From Eledone cirrhosa (lineage: Eukaryota), in assembly GCA_964016885.1 (NCBI GenBank), contig OZ024754.1:22382001-22446000 (forward strand): a DNA stretch of 64,000 nt. Reading direction: 5' to 3'. The translations under genes and the position numbers were made by a program. This document shows, piece by piece, positions 18,629-64,000 of this stretch. Position 1 is the first letter of the stretch, and each line of letters opens with the position of its first letter. Under the pieces are notes generated by a model, which was not told the origin of the DNA, did not search any database, and saw only the letters and a program-made list of their open reading frames with translations.

Positions 18629-19196
18629 TTAATCTATAATGAGTTAAATTAAATTATATAAATTTTATATAAATTTTTAATTAAACTATATATGTGATTG
18701 CTATAGAAAATATCTATACTGATTAATTTTGATATAATATATAAGTATAATTAGCTAAGGCATAATCAAATACTAAAGATATTCAATTGTTTAGTTGAAT
18801 TGATTGGATGTCCTATTTGATCCAGTATTTGAAAACAACGGTTTTTTCTATATCCCCTTCTATTTTCTTTACCCCCCTCTGTTCACTTTACTTTCCTTAC
18901 ACCTTCCCTCTTTTGTCGTTATTCCTCTTTTCTTTTTTATATATTTCTTTTACGCATTCATCATTGTATTTTTTATTTTTTATTCATTTATTTATTTATG
19001 TATTTATTTTTTTCCTGCCTTTCCTCTTCTTTACACCCTCTCTCATATCTCTAATGTGCTCTACGTCCTTTTCTTCTTTAAGTTTATCATATTATTTGTG
19101 GTATATAAACGTTGAGATTTGATGAAATAAATCACTGCCAATACTGGAATTGTATAATCAAGACCGTAGTGGTATGTCATATATCAAATCATATAT

Positions 19197-19252
19197 TTTA
19201 TCTGATGAAGACGTACTGAAAAAACAACACAGTACCTTTGAAATATAATAAA
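19197..19252 (+). ncRNA. Type I hammerhead ribozyme, PLE-associated, long stem II
   Basis: TTTAT-CTGATGA-agac GTACTG [loop] CAGTAC cttt-GAAA-TATA-ATAAA; stem I TTTAT/ATAAA. Confidence 0.6.
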
Positions 19253-19383
19253 GCATATATTTTGATTATGTCAATATCCTTCATTTGTTAATATTTTGAA
19301 AAATATATATATGTATATGTATATATAAACGGAAAAAATGAAACGAAATTTCATTTCCCACTCTTAAAACGGCTGTTACTTAA

Positions 19384-19896
19384 ATATAAGTATGTACACG
19401 TACATACATATATGTATACAGACGTACAGTAGTATGTATATATATATACATACATGCACACACATATATATATATGTATGTATGGATTCACCGAACATTT
19501 ATTATAATGCTCGGTGTGTTTGTAAACAAACATCCCGTATTAAGCCGTAGTGTCCAGCAACCATCGTTGCTCGTTTGTTCAACACTGACAAAGGAACGCT
19601 GTACTAGTTTCAAGCTTATTAGCTATCGTCAGCAACGTATACCTTCCTGCCAGATTGATAATAAGCTTGAAACTAGTACAGCGGTCCTTTGTCAGTGTTG
19701 AACAAACGAGCAACGAGGGTTGCGGGACACTACGGCTTAATACGGGATGTTTGTTTACAAACACACCGAGCATTATAATAAATGTTCGGTGAATCCATAC
19801 ATACATATATATATATGTGTGTGCATGTATGTATATATATATACATACTACTGTACGTCTGTATACATATATGTATGTACGTGTACATACTTATAT
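19384..19896. repeat. Foldback/palindromic element, ~238-bp arms with a 37-bp spacer
   Basis: 19384-19621 is the near-exact reverse complement of 19659-19896; mirrored ORFs 19474+ and 19579- in the track. Confidence 0.9.
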
Positions 19897-20059
19897 ATAT
19901 ATATATATACATATATATAAATATGGTTTTATAAATATAGTTTCCATTTATTTAATATGATTGAATATTTACTCCAAGAACTTGTTGAGTGCTCTAAATC
20001 AGTTATAAACATTTATATTTATATTTGTCGGATTTCCAACAAATTAAATACCCCTTCCA

Positions 20060-28995: not shown

Positions 28996-30038
28996 ATATA
29001 TATATATTTTGCTGAACTCCTTATTGTAGATTTTTTTTCAGAATGTTTTTGACTGTTGTTTCATGTAAACAAACATTCATCTCATTCTGACGTCACCGGC
29101 CCTGTTTTTCCACATGTGCGTTTTATTTTCATAATCACGCATGATGTTAAACTAGCCTGCTTTTAAATTCCCTTTTTGGCATATTAATCAGTGAGAATCT
29201 GGCTATCGTGTTGAGCTCTGCTGATTATCGTATTCCAACCGTGACCATCTCCACTGAAAGTTTTCGTGAAATAGTCTTTTTCAAGACTATACAGAGCATT
29301 TGTAGTTGTCCCAAATTGAAGGATGAGTATTTTAAACTTTATTTTATCATGAGATAAGGCTCTATTGATTTTTCCCTGGATTTCACTAAATTCTGTTGGA
29401 TAAATCTATATCCTGTTTCTTTTTGAATTGAGTTTGAATTATTTTTCCCACATCTTACGTTAACTATTTTCCCATTTTGACGCTATAGTCACTTATATAT
29501 TATGGAATACTGTTGGCTTCTTGCTACAATACTTTCTATACCTTTCATTTATATATATATATATATATTTATTAAAATAACAGATCAAAGTTTAAGCAAA
29601 GAATTGCTGCTTTCACCCTTAATGGGATCTTCTGAAACTAACAAAGTCAATCTGTGAACGCAGAAGTGAATATTTCATAAAACGTTGCAACCGGAGGAAG
29701 ACGATACTTTAGTTCGTGGAAAGACGGGGAAAAAACGAATATAATACGTCATTATTTGGAGCGGTGAAAAACAATTACACGCAAAGACAAAACCACGTTT
29801 ATTGTATAAAAGAAGTAGACAAGTATTCTATTAGGTGGTTCATAGAGACGTTCTCAGACAATGAACGGAAAAAACGAAGATAATACGTCATATGTGGAGC
29901 GGGGAGAACAATTGCACGCAAAGACAAAATATTTGCCCTACGGTTCATATATATTTGATATATATTTATCCTTATCAAGCCCTCTTTGGATTTTAGTCTT
30001 CAAATTTATTATTATTACTATATATATATATATATATG

Positions 30039-30076
<38 letters not shown>

Positions 30077-30234
30077 TTGGAATAAATGCTCTGAAATAGC
30101 GATATATATGTGAATATAGACACAGAATATTCGAAAATATTCTGTATGTTTATAATAAACATTTTGAAGACCTAATCGCTATAGAATAGAATACGTCACG
30201 TATTACAATTAGATTCTCGATAAAAGCAAGGGAA

Positions 30235-30278
30235 GTAAGTCTACGCGTTTCATTCTTGTTAGAATTCATCAGGACTAC
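30235..30278 (-). ncRNA. Type I hammerhead ribozyme (copy 1)
   Basis: Reverse complement reads GTAGTC-CTGATGA-ATTCT-AACA-AGAAT-GAAA-CGCG-TA-GACTTAC. Confidence 0.88.
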
Positions 30279-30545
30279 ATATCCAGTGCTTTTATCGAGA
30301 ATGACACAGCTAGAGACTTATAGAATACTTAGCTGTGTACAGGAACTGGTTTGAAAGAGCGGTTGCCGGTCCGGCAGAAATTAGAAATTGGAATAAATGC
30401 TCTGAAATAGCGATATATATGTGAATATAGACACAGAATATTCGAAAATATTCTGTATGTTTATAATAAACATTTTGAAGACCTAATCGCTATAGAATAG
30501 AATACGTCACGTATTACAATTAGATTCTCGATAAAAGCAAGGGAA

Positions 30546-30589
30546 GTAAGTCTACGCGTTTCATTCTTGTTAGAATTCATCAGGACTAC
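30546..30589 (-). ncRNA. Type I hammerhead ribozyme (copy 2)
   Basis: Identical motif 311 bp downstream of copy 1. Confidence 0.88.
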
Positions 30590-31028
30590 ATATCCAGTGC
30601 TTTTATCGAGAATGACACAGCTAGAGACTTATAGAATACTTAGCTGTGTACAGGAACTGGTTTGAAAGAGCGGTTGCCGGTCCGGCAGAAATTAGAAATT
30701 GGAATAAATGCTCTGAAATAGCGATATATATGTGAATATAGACACAGAATATTCGAAAATATTCTGTATGTTTATAATAAACATTTTGAAGACCTAATCG
30801 CTATAGAATAGAATACGTCACGTATTACAATTAGATTCTCGATAAAAGCAAGGGAATATTTTCGAATATTCTGTGTCTATATTCACATATATATCGCTAT
30901 TTCAGAGCATTTATTCCAATTTCTAATTTCTGCCGGACCGGCAACCGCTCTTTCAAACCAGTTCCTGTACACAGCTAAGTATTCTATAAGTCTCTAGCTG
31001 TGTCATTCTCGATAAAAGCACTGGATAT

Positions 31029-31072
31029 GTAGTCCTGATGAATTCTAACAAGAATGAAACGCGTAGACTTAC
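31029..31072 (+). ncRNA. Type I hammerhead ribozyme (copy 3)
   Basis: CTGATGA 31035-31041, stem II ATTCT/AGAAT, GAAA 31056-31059, palindromic ACGCGT, predicted cleavage after GUA (A31065), stem I AGTC/GACT. Confidence 0.9.
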
Positions 31073-31339
31073 TTCCCTTGCTTTTATCGAGAATCTAATT
31101 GTAATACGTGACGTATTCTATTCTATAGCGATTAGGTCTTCAAAATGTTTATTATAAACATACAGAATATTTTCGAATATTCTGTGTCTATATTCACATA
31201 TATATCGCTATTTCAGAGCATTTATTCCAATTTCTAATTTCTGCCGGACCGGCAACCGCTCTTTCAAACCAGTTCCTGTACACAGCTAAGTATTCTATAA
31301 GTCTTTAGCTGTGTCATTCTCGATAAAAGCACTGGATAT

Positions 31340-31383
31340 GTAGTCCTGATGAATTCTAACAAGAATGAAACGCGTAGACTTAC
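31340..31383 (+). ncRNA. Type I hammerhead ribozyme (copy 4)
   Basis: Identical motif 311 bp downstream of copy 3. Confidence 0.9.
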
Positions 31384-31650
31384 TTCCCTTGCTTTTATCG
31401 AGAATCTAATTGTAATACGTGACGTATTCTATTCTATAGCGATTAGGTCTTCAAAATGTTTATTATAAACATACAGAATATTTTCGAATATTCTGTGTCT
31501 ATATTCACATATATATCGCTATTTCAGAGCATTTATTCCAATTTCTAATTTCTGCCGGACCGGCAACCGCTCTTTCAAACCAGTTCCTGTACACAGCTAA
31601 GTATTCTATAAGTCTCTAGCTGTGTCATTCTCGATAAAAGCACTGGATAT

Positions 31651-31694
31651 GTAGTCCTGATGAATTCTAACAAGAATGAAACGCGTAGACTTAC
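31651..31694 (+). ncRNA. Type I hammerhead ribozyme (copy 5)
   Basis: Identical motif 622 bp downstream of copy 3. Confidence 0.9.
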
Positions 31695-31814
31695 TTCCCT
31701 TGCTTTTATCGAGAATCTAATTGTAATACGTGACGTATTCTATTCTATAGCGATTAGGTCTTCAAAATGTTTATTATAAACATACAGAATATTTTCGAAT
31801 ATTCTGTGTCTATA

Positions 31815-31849
<35 letters not shown>

Positions 31850-55318: not shown

Positions 55319-55586
55319 GGAGATGCACGGCTTAGTGGTTAGAGCATTGGCCTTGCAATCGAAAGGTTGTGAGTTCAATTCTCAGACCGGGTGATGTGTT
55401 GTTTCCTTGAGCAAGACACTTTATTTCACATTGCTCCAGTTTACTCAGCTGTAGAAATGAGATGATAGGGACTGGGGTCCATATCATTCCACTGTAAAGT
55501 GGACGTGGAGGAGCCACGGAAAAAAGCAGCCAGCACTCACTGTAAATGAGGTTGGTGTTAGGGAGGGCATCCAGCTGTAGAAATCA
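55319..55586 (+). mobile_element. SINE family B, 3' end replaced or interrupted by the minisatellite
   Basis: Head and core up to CCAGCTGTAGAAATCA, where the array starts. Confidence 0.85.
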
Positions 55587-58500
55587 GTGGTGGTGACAAT
55601 AGTGGTGGTGACAATAGTGGTGTTGATGATAGTGATGCTGATGATAGTGGTGTTGACGATAGTGATGTTGATGATAGTGGTGTTGACAATAGTGGTGGTG
55701 ACAATAGTGGTGGTGACAATAGTGGTGTTGATGATAGTGATGCTGATGATAGTGGTGTTGACGATAGTGATGTTGATGATAGTGGTGTTGACAATAGTGG
55801 TGGTGACAATAGTGGTGTTGATGATAGTGATGCTGATGATAGTGGTGTTGACGATAGTGATGTTGATGATAGTGGTGTTGACAATAGTGGTGGTGACAAT
55901 AGTGGTGGTGACAATAGTGGTGTTGATGATAGTGGTGTTGACGATAGTGATGTTGATGATAGTGGTGTTGACAATAGTGGTGGTGACAATAGTGGTGGTG
56001 ACAATAGTGGTGTTGATGATAGTGATGCTGATGATAGTGGTGTTGACGATAGTGATGTTGATGATAGTGGTGTTGACAATAGTGGTGGTGACAATAGTGG
56101 TGTTGATGATAGTGGTGTTGACGATAGTGATGTTGATGATAGTGGTGTTGACAATAGTGGTGGTGACAATAGTGGTGGTGACAATAGTGGTGTTGACGAT
56201 AGTGGTGTTGACAATAGTGGTGGTGACAATAGTGGTGATGACAATAGTGGTGATGACAATAGTGGTGGTGACAATAGTGGTGTTGATGATAGTGGTGGTG
56301 ACAATGGTGATGTTGACAATAGTGGTGATGACAATAGTGGTGGTGACAATAGTGGTGTTGACGATAGTGATGTTGATGATAGTGGTGGTGACAATAGTGG
56401 TGATGACAATAGTGGTGGTGACAATAGTGGTGGTGACAATAGTGGTGGTGACAATAGTGGTGGTGACAATAGTGGTGGTGACAATAGTGGTGTTGACATT
56501 AGTGATGTTGATGATAGTGGTGGTGACAATAGTGGTGGTGACAATAGTGGTGATGACAATGGTGGTGTTGACAATAGTGGTGGTGACAATAGTGGTGGTG
56601 ACAATAGTGGTGATGACAATGGTGATGTTGACAATAGTGGTGTTGACAATAGTGGTGATGACAATAGTGGTGGTGACGATAGTGGTGTTGATGATAGTGG
56701 TGTTGATGATAGTGGTGGTAACAATGGTGATGTTGACAATAGTGGTGATGACAATAGTGGTGGTGACAATAGTGGTGGTGACAATAGTGGTGGTGACGAT
56801 AGTGCTGGTGACAATAGTGATGGTGACAATGGTGGTGGTGACAATAGTGGTGGTGACAATAGTGGTGGTGACAATAGTGGTGGTGACAATAGTGATGGTG
56901 ACAATAGTGATGTTGACAATAGTGGTGGTGACAATAGTGGTGGTGACAATAGTGGTGGTGACAATAGTGGTGGTGACAATAGTGGTGGTGACAATAGTGG
57001 TGTTGACAATAGTGGTGGTGACAATAGTGGTGATGACAATAGTGGTGATGACAATAGTGGTGGTGACAATAGTGGTGATTACAATAGTGGTGGTGACAAT
57101 AGTGGTGGTGACAATAGTGGTGATGACAATAGTGGTGATGACAATAGTGGTGATTACAATAGTGGTGGTGACAATAGTGGTGATTACAATAGTGGTGGTG
57201 ACAATAGTGGTGTTGACAATAGTGGTGTTGACAATAGTGGTGGTGACAATAGTGGTGATGACAATAGTGGTGGTGACAATAGTGGTGTTGACAATAGTGG
57301 TGATGACAATAGTGATTACAATAGTGGTGGTGACAATAGTGGTGTTGACAATAGTGGTGGTGACAATAGTGGTGATGACAATAGTGGTGTTGACAATAGT
57401 GGTGGTGACAATAGTGGTGATGACAATAGTGGTGATGACAATAGTGGTGATTACAATAGTGGTGGTGACAATAGTGGTGTTGACAATAGTGGTGTTGACA
57501 ATAGTGGTGGTGACAATAGTGATGGTGACAATAGTGATGTTGACAATAGTGGTGGTGACAATAGTGGTGATGACAATAGTGGTGGTGACAATAGTGGTGT
57601 TGACAATAGTGGTGGTGACAATAGTGGTGTTGATGATAGTGGTGGTGACGATAGTGGTGATGACAATAGTGGTGATGACAATAGTGATGATGACAATAGT
57701 GGTGGTGACAATAGTGGTGGTGACAATAGTGGTGGTGACGATAGTGATGTTGATGATAGTGGTGGTGACAATAGTGGTGATGACAATAGTGGTGGTGACA
57801 ATAGTGGTGGTGACAATAGTGGTGGTGACAATAGTGGTGATGACAATAGTGGTGGTGACAATAGTGATGTTGATGATAGTGGTGGTGACAATAGTGATGG
57901 TGACAATAGTGGTGGTGACAATAGTGGTGATGACAATGGTGGTGTTGACAATAGTGGTGATGACAATAGTGGTGGTGACAATAGTGGTGGTGACAATAGT
58001 GGTGATGACAATGGTGATGTTGACAATAGTGGTGTTGACAATAGTGGTGTTGACAATAGTGGTGGTGACGATAGTGGTGTTGATGATAGTGGTGTTGATG
58101 ATAGTGGTGGTAACAATGGTGATGTTGACAATAGTGGTGATGACAATAGTGGTGGTGACAATAGTGGTGGTGACGATAGTGCTGGTGACAATAGTGATGG
58201 TGACAATGATGGTGGTGACAATAGTGGTGGTGACAATAGTGGTGGTGACAATAGTGGTGATGACAATAGTGGTGATGACAATAGTGGTGATTACAATAGT
58301 GGTGGTGACAATAGTGGTGATTACAATAGTGGTGGTGACAATAGTGGTGTTGACAATAGTGGTGGTGACAATAGTGGTGATGACAATAGTGGTGGTGACA
58401 ATAGTGGTGTTGACAATAGTGGTGATGACAATAGTGGTGATGACAATAGTGGTGATTACAATAGTGGTGGTGACAATAGTGGTGGTGACAATAGTGGTGA

Positions 58501-61500
58501 TGACAATAGTGGTGGTGACAATAGTGGTGGTGACGATAGTGCTGGTGACAATAGTGATGGTGACAATGATGGTGGTGACAATAGTGGTGGTGACAATAGT
58601 GGTGGTGACAATAGTGGTGATGACAATAGTGGTGATGACAATAGTGGTGATTACAATAGTGGTGGTGACAATAGTGGTGATTACAATAGTGGTGGTGACA
58701 ATAGTGGTGTTGACAATAGTGGTGTTGACAATAGTGGTGGTGACAATAGTGGTGATGACAATAGTGGTGGTGACAATAGTGGTGTTGACAATAGTGGTGA
58801 TGACAATAGTGGTGATGACAATAGTGGTGATTACAATAGTGGTGGTGACAATAGTGGTGGTGACAATAGTGGTGATGACAATAGTGGTGGTGACAATAGT
58901 GGTGTTGACAATAGTGGTGATGACAATAGTGGTGATGACAATAGTGGTGATGACAATAGTGGTGATTACAATAGTGGTGGTGACAATAGTGGTGTTGACA
59001 ATAGTGGTGGTGACAATAGTGGTGATGACAATAGTGGTGGTGACAATAGTGGTGGTGACAATAGTGGTGGTGACAATAGTGATGGTGACAATAGTGGTGG
59101 TGACAATAGTGGTGATGACAATAGTGGTGGTGACAATAGTGGTGTTGACAATAGTGGTGGTGACAATAGTGGTGTTGACGATAGTGGTGATGACAATAGT
59201 GATGATGACAATAGTGGTGGTGACAATAGTGGTGGTGACAATAGTGGTGTTGACAATAGTGGTGGTGACAATAGTGATGTTGACAATAGTGGTGGTGACA
59301 ATAGTGATGTTGACAATAGTGGTGGTGACAATAGTGGTGGTGACAATAGTGGTGGTGACGATAGTGGTGGTGACAATAGTGGTGATGACAATAGTGGTGG
59401 TGACAATAGTGGTGTTGACAATGGTGGTGGTGACAATAGTGGTGGTGACAATAGTGGTGATGACAATAGTGGTGGTGACAATGGTGGTGGTAACAATAGT
59501 TATGTTGACAATAGTGGTGGTGACAATAGTGGTGGTGACAATAGTGATGTTGACAATAGTGATGTTGACAATAGTGGTGATGACAATGGTGGTGTTGACA
59601 ATAGTGGTGATGACAATAGTGGTGGTGACAATAGTGGTGTTGATGATAGTGGTGGTGACAATAGTGGTGGTGACAATAGTGGTGGTGACAATGGTGGTGG
59701 TGACAATAGTGGTGTTGACAATAGTGGTGGTGACAATAGTGGTGATGACAATAGTGGTGGTGACAATAGTGGTGTTGACAATAGTGGTGATGACAATAGT
59801 GATTACAATAGTGGTGGTGACAATAGTGGTGTTGACAATAGTGGTGGTGACAATAGTGGTGATGACAATAGTGGTGTTGACAATAGTGGTGGTGACAATA
59901 GTGGTGATGACAATAGTGGTGATGACAATAGTGGTGATTACAATAGTGGTGGTGACAATAGTGGTGTTGACAATAGTGGTGTTGACAATAGTGGTGGTGA
60001 CAATAGTGATGGTGACAATAGTGATGTTGACAATAGTGGTGGTGACAATAGTGGTGATGACAATAGTGGTGGTGACAATAGTGGTGTTGACAATAGTGGT
60101 GGTGACAATAGTGGTGTTGATGATAGTGGTGGTGACGATAGTGGTGATGACAATAGTGGTGATGACAATAGTGATGATGACAATAGTGGTGGTGACAATA
60201 GTGGTGGTGACAATAGTGGTGGTGACGATAGTGATGTTGATGATAGTGGTGGTGACAATAGTGGTGATGACAATAGTGGTGGTGACAATAGTGGTGGTGA
60301 CAATAGTGGTGGTGACAATAGTGGTGATGACAATAGTGGTGGTGACAATAGTGATGTTGATGATAGTGGTGGTGACAATAGTGATGGTGACAATAGTGGT
60401 GGTGACAATAGTGGTGATGACAATGGTGGTGTTGACAATAGTGGTGATGACAATAGTGGTGGTGACAATAGTGGTGGTGACAATAGTGGTGATGACAATG
60501 GTGATGTTGACAATAGTGGTGTTGACAATAGTGGTGTTGACAATAGTGGTGGTGACGATAGTGGTGTTGATGATAGTGGTGTTGATGATAGTGGTGGTAA
60601 CAATGGTGATGTTGACAATAGTGGTGATGACAATAGTGGTGGTGACAATAGTGGTGGTGACGATAGTGCTGGTGACAATAGTGATGGTGACAATGATGGT
60701 GGTGACAATAGTGGTGGTGACAATAGTGGTGGTGACAATAGTGGTGATGACAATAGTGGTGATGACAATAGTGGTGATTACAATAGTGGTGGTGACAATA
60801 GTGGTGATTACAATAGTGGTGGTGACAATAGTGGTGTTGACAATAGTGGTGGTGACAATAGTGGTGATGACAATAGTGGTGGTGACAATAGTGGTGTTGA
60901 CAATAGTGGTGATGACAATAGTGGTGATGACAATAGTGGTGATTACAATAGTGGTGGTGACAATAGTGGTGGTGACAATAGTGGTGATGACAATAGTGGT
61001 GGTGACAATAGTGGTGGTGACGATAGTGCTGGTGACAATAGTGATGGTGACAATGATGGTGGTGACAATAGTGGTGGTGACAATAGTGGTGGTGACAATA
61101 GTGGTGATGACAATAGTGGTGATGACAATAGTGGTGATTACAATAGTGGTGGTGACAATAGTGGTGGTGACAATAGTGGTGGTGACAATAGTGGTGTTGA
61201 CAATAGTGGTGGTGACAATAGTGGTGATGACAATAGTGGTGGTGACAATAGTGGTGTTGACAATAGTGGTGATGACAATAGTGGTGATGACAATAGTGGT
61301 GATTACAATAGTGGTGGTGACAATAGTGGTGGTGACAATAGTGGTGATGACAATAGTGGTGGTGACAATAGTGGTGTTGACAATAGTGGTGATGACAATA
61401 GTGGTGATGACAATAGTGGTGATGACAATAGTGGTGATTACAATAGTGGTGGTGACAATAGTGGTGTTGACAATAGTGGTGGTGACAATAGTGGTGATGA

Positions 61501-64000
61501 CAATAGTGGTGGTGACAATAGTGGTGGTGACAATAGTGGTGGTGACAATAGTGATGGTGACAATAGTGGTGGTGACAATAGTGGTGATGACAATAGTGGT
61601 GGTGACAATAGTGGTGTTGACAATAGTGGTGGTGACAATAGTGGTGTTGACGATAGTGGTGATGACAATAGTGATGATGACAATAGTGGTGGTGACAATA
61701 GTGGTGGTGACAATAGTGGTGTTGACAATAGTGGTGGTGACAATAGTGATGTTGACAATAGTGGTGGTGACAATAGTGATGTTGACAATAGTGGTGGTGA
61801 CAATAGTGGTGGTGACAATAGTGGTGGTGACGATAGTGGTGGTGACAATAGTGGTGATGACAATAGTGGTGGTGACAATAGTGGTGTTGACAATGGTGGT
61901 GGTGACAATAGTGGTGGTGACAATAGTGGTGATGACAATAGTGGTGGTGACAATGGTGGTGGTAACAATAGTTATGTTGACAATAGTGGTGGTGACAATA
62001 GTGGTGGTGACAATAGTGATGTTGACAATAGTGATGTTGACAATAGTGGTGATGACAATGGTGGTGTTGACAATAGTGGTGATGACAATAGTGGTGGTGA
62101 CAATAGTGGTGTTGATGATAGTGGTGGTGACAATAGTGGTGGTGACAATAGTGGTGGTGACAATGGTGGTGGTGACAATAGTGGTGATGACAATAGTGGT
62201 GGTGACAATAGTGGTGTTGACAATAGTGGTGGTGACAATAGTGGTGTTGACGATAGTGGTGATGACAATAGTGATGATGACAATAGTGGTGGTGACAATA
62301 GTGGTGGTGACAATAGTGGTGGTGACAATAGTGATGTTGACAATAGTGGTGGTGACAATAGTGATGTTGACAATAGTGGTGGTGACAATAGTGGTGGTGA
62401 CAATAGTGGTGGTGACGATAGTGGTGGTGACAATAGTGGTGATGACAATAGTGGTGGTGACAATAGTGGTGTTGACAATAGTGGTGGTGACAATAGTGGT
62501 GATGACAATAGTGGTGGTGACAATGGTGGTGTTGACAATGGTGGTGGTGACAATAGTGATGTTGACAATAGTGGTGGTGACAATAGTGGTGGTGACAATA
62601 GTGATGTTGACAATAGTGATGTTGACAATAGTGGTGATGACAATGGTGGTGTTGACAATAGTGGTGATGACAATAGTGGTGGTGATGATAGTGGTGGTGA
62701 CAATAGTGGTGGTGACAATGGTGGTGGTGACAATAGTGGTGTTGACAATGGTGGTGTTGACAATGGTGGTGTTGACAATGGTGGTGTTGACAATAGTGAT
62801 GTTGACAATAGTGGTGATGACAATAGTGGTGGTGACAATGGTGGTGTTGACAATAGTGGTGGTGACAATAGTGATGATGACAATAGTGGTGTTGACAATG
62901 GTGGTGTTGACAATAGTGGTGATGACAATAGTGGTGATGACAATAGTGGTGGTGACAATAGTGGTGTTGACAATAGTGGTGGTGACAATAGTGGTGGTGA
63001 CAATAGTGGTGTTGACGATAGTGGTGATGACAATAGTGATGACAATAGTGGTGGTGACAATAGTGGTGGTGACAATAGTGATGTTGACAATAGTGGTGGT
63101 GACAAGAGTGATGTTGACAATAGTGGTGGTGACAATAGTGGTGGTGACGATAGTGGTGGTGACGATAGTGGTGATGACAATAGTGGTGGTGACAATAGTG
63201 GTGTTGACAATGGTGGTGGTGACAATAGTGATGTTGACAATAGTGGTGATGACAATAGTGGTGGTGACAATGGTGGTGTTGACAATAGTGGTGATGACAA
63301 TAGTGGTGGTGACAATAGTGGTGGTGACAATAGTGGTGTTGACAATAGTGATGTTGACAATAGTGGTGATGACAATGGTGGTGTTGACAATAGTGATGAT
63401 GACAATAGTGGTGGTGACAATAGTGGTGGTGACAATAGTGGTGGTGACAATGGTGGTGGTGACAATAGTGGTGGTGACAATAGTGGTGTTGACAATGGTG
63501 GTGGTGACAATAGTGATGTTGACAATAGTGGTGATGACAATAGTGGTGGTGACAATGGTGGTGTTGACAATAGTGGTGATGACAATAGTGGTGGTGACAA
63601 TAGTGATGATGACAATAGTGGTGTTGATGATAGTGGTGGTGACAATAGTGGTGTTGACAATAGTGGTGGTGACAATAGTGGTGGTGACAATAGTGATGTT
63701 GATGATAGTGGTGGTGACAATAGTGATGTTGATGATAGTGGTGATGACAATAGTGGTGTTGACAATAGTGGTGGTGACAATAGTGGTGTTGACAATAGTG
63801 GTTATGACAATAGTGATGGTGACAATAGTGATGTTGATAGTGGTGGTGACAATAGTGGTAGTGACAATGGTGGTGGTGACAATAGTGGTGGTGACAATAG
63901 TGGTGATGACAATAGTGGTGATGACAATAGTGGTGATGACAATAGTGGTGTTGATGATAGTGATGTTGACAATAGTGGTGATGACAATAGTGGTGTTGAT
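55586..64000. repeat. 15-bp minisatellite (GACAATAGTGGTGGT and variants) with higher-order structure
   Basis: Continuous array to the window end; identical translated blocks offset by 2487 and 2472 bp in the ORF track. Confidence 0.97.

What the first reader, a model, noticed from the sequence alone, without database searches (positions are those of the whole stretch)
30076..31820. Retrozyme-like element: 311-bp tandem repeats, each complete unit with an intact hammerhead ribozyme
Seen: a non-coding 311-bp unit, ~2.5 copies in one orientation and ~3.1 in the other. The copies are nearly identical (I noticed one C/T difference near 31305) and are bounded by (TA)n. Five copies carry AGTC-CUGAUGA-AUUCU-AACA-AGAAU-GAAA-CGCG-UA-GACU, a complete type I hammerhead core, with stem I extended by a 16-bp helix (ATTCTCGATAAAAGCA/TGCTTTTATCGAGAAT). 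Known: tandem repeats of a few hundred nt with type I hammerheads (non-LTR retrozymes) yield small circular RNAs in several animals and are thought to be mobilised by Penelope-like elements. Inference: this is a young cephalopod retrozyme family whose multimeric transcripts self-cleave after GUA to 311-nt monomers that may circularise. I do not recognise the family but cannot confirm it is undescribed.
Basis: partly seen in the sequence, partly recalled or inferred. Interest (0 to 1): 0.92.

Follow-up and report, generated by a model that had tools for sequence, protein, structure and literature searches.

The report
Self-cutting RNA repeat, Penelope-type insertions
This is one copy of a young, non-coding 311-base repeat with a predicted self-cutting RNA motif that sits at over a thousand places in this animal genome as back-to-back arrays, and its ends suggest that a Penelope-type jumping-gene enzyme wrote it in from both sides of a DNA break, likely by copying round a small RNA circle.

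Summary
Observation confirmed: 2.5 + 3.1 head-to-head copies of a 311-bp unit, five type I hammerhead cores, (TA)n on both sides. It is a real, young mobile family: 1,313 exact end junctions in the genome. In 87 of 99 fetched insertions one outer end lies at unit position 131-140 and the other at 164-171; none had two ends of one class (5 unresolved, 7 single-orientation). That is the published Penelope 'tail' signature. Arrays are clonal across both arms (648 of 743 units identical to their own array's commonest unit, 33 haplotypes), which favours a monomeric RNA circle as template. Nine mosaic arrays, some sharing minority variants between arms, show that multimeric or swapped templates also occur. 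Helix III is a palindromic minimal stem, so cleavage likely needs dimers. Cleavage, circles and expression are untested, and no partner Penelope family was found. Filed as a metazoan non-LTR retrozyme with an insertion anatomy not described for retrozymes in the papers read. The scan noted this family and this reading before, on other windows of the same genome.

The parts
30019..30075 (.). Left (TA)n target microsatellite
   Evidence: 82 of 82 oriented insertions have (TA)n on both sides
30076..30856 (-). Left arm, 2.51 units, sense on the minus strand; outer end at unit position 166 ('long' end), inner end at position 8. Unit position 1 = first base after the predicted cut.
30076..30110 (-). 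35-nt 'tail' (unit positions 132-166), terminal at this end only; inferred to be the stretch between two reverse-transcription start sites
   Evidence: family-wide pattern; compared with PMC11167929
30235..30278 (-). Type I hammerhead, copy 1; predicted cut after 30242
30546..30589 (-). Type I hammerhead, copy 2; predicted cut after 30553
30854..30856 (.). Inversion junction, 3-nt microhomology joining unit position 8 (left arm) to position 100 (right arm)
30854..31818 (+). Right arm, 3.10 units; outer end at unit position 131 ('short' end; cannot be told from 140 because the unit reads ATATATAT there)
31005..31094 (+). Hammerhead copy 3 (31029-31072) with the 16-bp helix 31005-31020/31079-31094 extending stem I; predicted cut after 31065
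31066..31376 (+). One full cut-to-cut monomer, 311 nt (carries the 31305 variant)
31340..31383 (+). Type I hammerhead, copy 4; predicted cut after 31376
31436..31522 (+). Conserved structured region before the short end (long-range helix enclosing two hairpins), shared with the older family B; candidate binding site for the transposon protein (inferred)
31651..31694 (+). Type I hammerhead, copy 5; predicted cut after 31687
31819..31846 (.). Right (TA)n target microsatellite

Best explanation
This is one insertion of a young non-coding hammerhead repeat (a non-LTR retrozyme) that was likely written into a (TA)n tract by a Penelope-type transposon protein, which would prime reverse transcription from both sides of the cut at two fixed RNA sites about 35 nt apart and probably copy round a small RNA circle. 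Shown from sequence: unit, core letters, copy number, (TA)n target, one short plus one long outer end, scattered inner ends, clonal arrays. Inferred steps: (1) arrays are transcribed as multimers; (2) neighbouring ribozymes pair their palindromic helix III and cut to monomers; (3) a host ligase closes circles; (4) a Penelope RT-endonuclease dimer binds near unit positions 60-170, cuts both strands of (TA)n and extends both 3' ends as antisense cDNA for 0.2 to over 25 rounds; (5) the two cDNAs are joined head-to-head by microhomology or short templated filler. A minority of insertions used multimeric or swapped templates. My odds: retrozyme 0.95, Penelope-type mobilisation 0.9, circle as the usual template 0.65.
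For: Ends: 13 of 16 best-scoring insertions, 38 of 42 and 34 of 41 consecutive long-end insertions on contig C1 have one short and one long end; two more of the last set do on inspection (L157, L158), giving 87 of 99; no complete array had two ends of one class. Published Penelope elements carry a 30-40 bp tail on one end and inverted 5'-truncated copies (passages), and the purified anole protein cuts and extends both strands and starts at two internal RNA sites that define the tail. Penelope-type RT-GIY-YIG families in this genome show the same two-end build at (TA)n; one has at least 111 copies at 97-100% protein identity. Clonality: 648 of 743 full units in 90 arrays equal their own array's commonest unit; 33 haplotypes in 79 arrays; mean differences 0.31 within against 3.58 between arrays (first 54 arrays); 15 of 61 arrays with at least 4 identical units have a haplotype seen once, 13 of them on both arms. 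Only 9 of 176 inner ends lie within 10 nt of the cut site (11.3 expected), so neither cut monomer ends nor one start site limits the arms. RNA-level constraint: against the older family B, 11 of 45 pairs show changes on both sides, 91% of cells pair, slid controls 39-54%. Array-wide variants lean to A>G on the sense strand: 11 sites/18 events against 5/5 for T>C (p 0.051 by site, 0.0013 by event), while single-unit variants do not (8 against 18). Three runs from other labelled organisms each hold one 340-nt contig, the size of a closed 310-nt loop (run type unknown).
Against: No RNA evidence and no cleavage test. Helix III does not form in the predicted monomer, most haplotypes have U.U at the base of stem II (20 of 33), 8 of 9 Xenopus dimers did not cleave in vitro, and the anole protein uses uncut RNA as its main substrate. 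Nine arrays are mosaic. L167 has two units of one haplotype outermost in both arms and another haplotype inside; L123 has a mirror-placed variant; L124 and L103b share a minority variant between arms in offset position; L148, L104 and L100 repeat variants irregularly, as unequal exchange would. A single monomer circle does not explain these. The A>G excess did not replicate by new sites in the second sample (3 A>G against 4 T>C, counted) and can also come from tolerance of G.U pairs rather than editing. No partner: none of 50 Penelope 3' regions from about six families shares sequence with the unit, none of 42 junction loci was shown joined to a Penelope ORF (L097 has an N gap before one), and the youngest family sampled has a tail of about 63 nt, not 35.
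Confidence: 0.62

Rival explanations
1. Same Penelope-type twin priming, but the template is usually a long uncut linear transcript of an existing array; the ribozyme is mostly silent, and arrays are clonal because source arrays are homogenised by unequal exchange.
For: L167, L123, L124 and L103b share minority variants between arms; L148, L104, L100 show irregular repeats of a variant. Weak helix III. Uncut RNA is the main in vitro substrate of the anole element.
Against: Only 2 of 65 arrays with full units in both arms share a non-modal full unit although 72 of their 619 units are non-modal. 25 haplotypes among 61 well-supported arrays would need many separately homogenised masters, yet only 9 mosaics were seen. 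Inner ends do not cluster. The core and helices are kept by compensatory change.
Confidence: 0.27
2. The unit is the pseudo-LTR of an unsampled autonomous Penelope family, or a DNA-level satellite (DNA circle or unequal crossing-over) seeded from one; the arrays are by-products, not a self-propagating RNA.
For: 24 of 57 Xenopus retrozyme families matched Repbase elements, nearly all Penelope-type, at their termini, and that preprint proposes local amplification. Only 150 of 10,597 GIY-YIG candidates were scored here.
Against: No ORF joined at 42 junction loci and no Penelope protein hit in 20 family-B loci. Local amplification does not give two multi-unit arms that each end at a fixed site. 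Strand-biased fixed variants and covariation point to an RNA stage.
Confidence: 0.08
3. Assembly or library artefact (fold-back chimeras, collapsed repeat).
For: Perfect inverted repeats can arise in library preparation (own knowledge); small unplaced contigs carry indel-rich copies (L043).
Against: Asymmetric fixed ends, locus-specific haplotypes, different junctions at each locus and 1,313 junctions; the unit is also in public runs from four studies.
Confidence: 0.01

Closest known systems
Metazoan non-LTR retrozymes (Cervera and de la Pena 2020, PMC7229834, parts 2-4 of 6 read; review PMC7761336, passages; Li, Clavereau and Pollet 2026, 10.64898/2026.07.22.740005, parts 1-3 of 5 read)
   Same: Non-coding tandem unit of 150-450 bp, low GC, one type I hammerhead per unit, structured monomer, many dispersed arrays, co-occurs with Penelope elements. 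Helix III is like axolotl HHR_Amex1 and newt satellite (single pair plus palindromic tetraloop, dimer-dependent).
   Different: In the text read, arrays are described as plain tandems; head-to-head arms, two fixed ends and (TA)n targeting are not described, and the review says the repeats show no motif pointing to the mobilising element. No cephalopod is named in the parts read; supplements were not seen. Circular RNA is shown for those, not for this.
EN+ Penelope-like elements, Neptune and Naiad clades (Craig et al. 2021, 10.1101/2021.04.23.441226, 12 passages read) and anole Poseidon PAc (Frangieh et al. 2024, PMC11167929, parts 1-2 of 4 read)
   Same: Inverted 5'-truncated copy at the 5' end, 30-40 bp tail on one end, microsatellite or AT-rich target, two internal start sites, type I hammerhead near the 3' end.
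   Different: No ORF; unit 311 nt; arms of up to 25 or more complete units rather than partial tandems; canonical CUGAUGA core, whereas two local Penelope families have a U3-A8 minimal core; no sequence match to the local pseudo-LTRs sampled.
L1 twin priming (recalled, no call)
   Same: Both target ends prime cDNA and give a 5' inversion joined by microhomology.
   Different: Here both start sites are fixed and internal, the arms overlap in template sequence many times over, and there is no poly(A).

Membership tests
Metazoan non-LTR retrozyme | Tandem unit of 150-450 bp, GC under 50%, non-coding | tested here: met
   311 bp, 35% GC (base counts), no internal ORF of 40 aa
Metazoan non-LTR retrozyme | Type I hammerhead core in each unit | tested here: met
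   5 of 5 complete sites in the window; 742 of 743 units keep CUGANGA (units were cut at the GAAA-helix III motif, so only the 5' half is a test); chance 0 of 20,000
Metazoan non-LTR retrozyme | Dispersed multi-copy family without LTR build | tested here: met
   primer-binding site and polypurine tract were not searched for
Metazoan non-LTR retrozyme | Self-cleavage of transcripts | not testable with these tools
   helix III unpaired in the monomer model; 6-bp intermolecular pairing -7.5 kcal/mol
Metazoan non-LTR retrozyme | Accumulation of monomeric circular RNA | tested here: inconclusive
   run types unknown; 340-nt loop-sized contigs fit a circle or a uniform array
Metazoan non-LTR retrozyme | Target-site duplication longer than 4 bp where visible | tested here: inconclusive
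   5 of 82 with informative 12-58 nt duplications, control mean 0.9, max 4; most flanks are pure TA
Rfam hammerhead families | Score at or above gathering threshold | tested here: not met
   no hit; HH9 17.8 of 52 bits
Penelope-mobilised element | Tail of 30-40 bp on one end only, with inverted 5'-truncated copy | tested here: met
   87 of 99 insertions
Penelope-mobilised element | Sequence shared with the pseudo-LTR of an autonomous partner | tested here: not met
   0 of 50 3' regions, about six families; sampling far from complete
Autonomous Penelope-like element | RT plus GIY-YIG ORF | tested here: not met
Viroid-like replicon with ribozymes in both strands | Ribozyme on the antisense strand | tested here: not met
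   descriptor finds one hammerhead per unit, one polarity; no other Rfam ribozyme family listed at E up to 10

The most novel reading that the evidence does not exclude
The genome holds over a thousand recent fossils of rolling-circle retrotransposition: a dimeric Penelope protein starts two reverse transcriptases 35 nt apart on one ribozyme-made RNA circle and runs both round it many times, so that single-molecule changes in the circle, including A-to-I edits, become fixed in every unit of a new insertion. This would be direct genomic evidence for the retrozyme life cycle and for how Penelope inverted ends form, with RNA editing feeding heritable DNA change.
Probability: 0.4. Interest if true: 0.8.

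Novelty: new variant of a known kind. Interest (0 to 1): 0.6.

Why it matters
How animal retrozymes get back into DNA, and how Penelope elements make their tandem and inverted ends, are both stated as open in the papers read. A very young family with fixed start sites, a defined target and clonal arrays gives a ready substrate for the existing in vitro Penelope assay, and a natural model of a ribozyme-made circle acting as a transposition template. It does not define a new class of element.

Tried and rejected
Rfam thresholds: no hammerhead hit; the microRNA matches reflect the palindrome and TA runs. Expression: no RNA holder listed; this says nothing for or against. A check on whether those runs also hold a Penelope ORF gave no result, so their nature stays open. 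Partner search: GIY-YIG scan, 40 loci around the hits, 3' regions and 20 family-B loci gave no shared pseudo-LTR; apparent matches in L049, L177 and L187 are separate insertions into TA tracts. A profile search for further intact Penelope families was not available; a single-protein search returned only one family. I first read G278A as a two-sided compensatory change; one search showed it is a one-sided G.U to A-U change and I withdrew it. One search used a mistyped structure and is superseded; the 16-bp helix probabilities used a wrong register and are not used. L043 (indel-rich small contig) was left out of the variant counts; arrays without a full unit drop out of unit counts. Target-site duplications could not be resolved in most flanks. 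Literature searches listed no paper on a cephalopod retrozyme or on inverted retrozyme arrays; the giant squid genome paper notes 235 Hammerhead_1 matches without analysis (passages). The library lacks most subscription papers and Repbase/Dfam; supplements of PMC7229834 and of the 2026 preprint were not seen and may list such a family.

Full report
Observation. The window holds two blocks of a 311-bp unit, 30076-30856 and 30854-31818/31827, in opposite orientation between (TA)n tracts. Numbering the unit from the first base after the predicted cut, the left arm is sense on the minus strand and runs from position 8 out to 166; the right arm runs from 100 out to 131; they share 3 nt at the junction; one unit has C240T at 31305. 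Five hammerhead cores are present and the descriptor is met by 0 of 20,000 shuffled monomers. Rfam does not call them at gathering score; HH9 gives 17.8 of 52 bits. Stems I and II form with probability 0.76-0.99 in a circular monomer model, but helix III (one A-U pair and a palindromic CGCG loop) does not form; two copies can pair it in trans. PMC7229834 describes this type in newt and axolotl as cleaving well only in dimers.

Family. The window lies on a 46-Mb contig of a 3.0-Gb genome. The monomer gave 388 matches from 39 of 138 candidates, the 150 listed at 99-100% identity. An exact pattern for the long end joined to TA occurs 1,313 times, control 0; the window-type 40-nt ribozyme occurs 1,143 times, an undercount because the commonest unit is a 310-nt variant. 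With mean arms of 3.7 and 5.3 units that is roughly 12,000 units (my estimate). An older relative, family B, is 75-82% alike over parts of the unit, gives 2,816 pattern matches and ends at the homologous two sites. Between the window unit and ten B copies, 11 of 45 pairs change on both sides and 91% of cells pair, against 39-54% for slid controls (the structure came from the window unit and the rows are related, so this is support, not a p-value).

End anatomy. I mapped 99 insertions: 16 chosen by best score, then 42 and 41 taken in order along contig C1 from the long-end list. One outer end at 131-140 and the other at 164-171 was found in 13, 38 and 34 of them by script and in two more by eye: 87 of 99. 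Five ran off the fetched stretch or into a gap and seven have one orientation only. No complete array had two ends of the same class. Both outer ends are sense 3' ends. Inner ends are scattered, 9 of 176 near the cut site against 11.3 expected, and are joined with overlaps of up to 16 nt, blunt, or with short fillers. Arm lengths correlate (rho 0.38, p 0.001, 72 arrays). Craig et al. describe for Penelope elements an inverted 5'-truncated copy and a 30-40 bp tail on one end. Frangieh et al. show that a purified Penelope protein, predicted to be a dimer, cuts and extends both strands and starts at two internal RNA sites whose interval is the tail. The Penelope families fetched here (RT plus C-terminal GIY-YIG, most with a CxxxxCxxC linker) also end at two sites beside (TA)n, with tails of about 40-63 nt. 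I infer that a Penelope-type protein inserts the repeat. The partner was not found, and only 150 of 10,597 GIY-YIG candidates were scored.

Template. Of 743 full units in 90 arrays, 648 equal their own array's commonest unit, while 79 arrays carry 33 haplotypes. Fifteen of 61 well-supported arrays have a haplotype seen once, for example L121 in 16 of 16 units across both arms. A new variant must pass through one unit to fill an array; a circle copied round and round does this in one step, and about 13% of units differ from their array's type, enough to seed such circles. Nine of ten such A sites examined are predicted paired. The bias fits A-to-I editing of the template but equally selection that tolerates G.U pairs, and new sites in the second sample showed no excess. 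Either way it points to an RNA stage; editing itself is not shown.

Against a pure circle model. Nine arrays are mosaic. L167 has two units of one known haplotype outermost in both arms and another haplotype inside; L123 has a mirror-placed variant; L124 and L103b share a minority variant in offset position; L114 changes haplotype within one arm; L148, L104 and L100 repeat variants irregularly. These need a multi-unit template, a simultaneous template swap, or later exchange. They are a minority: 2 of 65 arrays with full units in both arms share a non-modal full unit. Cleavage is also not assured: 8 of 9 Xenopus dimers did not cleave, and uncut RNA was the main substrate for the anole protein.

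Other data. Six public runs from four studies hold the unit; their type is not on record. Three hold a single 340-nt contig, which is 310 plus 30 and so fits a closed loop in an assembly graph, from a circle or a uniform array.

Comparison and verdict. It meets every sequence-level feature of metazoan non-LTR retrozymes; cleavage and circular RNA are untested. The life cycle inferred here was proposed in PMC7229834, and Penelope origin was argued by co-occurrence and homology in the 2026 preprint. In six searches and the parts read I found no description of head-to-head retrozyme arrays with a Penelope tail, nor of a cephalopod family; supplements and repeat databases were not seen. The scan's earlier notes report this family and the same reading on other windows; my reading was written before that look-up, and those notes are not independent support. 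Novelty: new variant of a known kind. Interest 0.6.

Noticed in passing
window 19360-19900: A second, unrelated hammerhead element with two inverted arms; one intact core on the minus strand near 19601-19640. Relatives in L094, and a roughly 490-nt tandem family in L078, L092 and L101.
   Followed up: partly
window 19190-19260 and about 19900-20050: A third hammerhead motif (core at +19202) whose element appears interrupted by the one above.
   Followed up: no
window 55586-63999: 15-bp tandem array, at least 562 copies, 90% matches, running to the window end.
   Followed up: no
window 29570-29990: TA-bounded element with an internally duplicated piece at 137-139 nt spacing; its ends recur in L079:6700-6815.
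   Followed up: no
L073, L076, L080 (for example L080:3130-3330): Family C: another hammerhead element, 72% like unit positions 227-306, inserted in TA tracts after Penelope ends.
   Followed up: partly
L068:2280-2460 and L080:2880-3100: Local Penelope families carry minimal hammerheads with a U3-A8 core and a palindromic CCGG loop; one has GCAA in place of GAAA in all copies seen.
   Followed up: partly
L104:1158-1429: A 272-nt foreign piece lies between the two arms, a possible captured template.
   Followed up: no
G000, one search list: Many copies of the youngest Penelope family have an open frame of exactly 775 aa with upstream coding-like sequence in another frame, which may mean an intron or frameshift.
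   Followed up: no
L044, L047, L168: Single-orientation arrays that begin at or just after the unit's own ATATATAT, as if one arm was lost by exchange with the flanking (TA)n.
   Followed up: no
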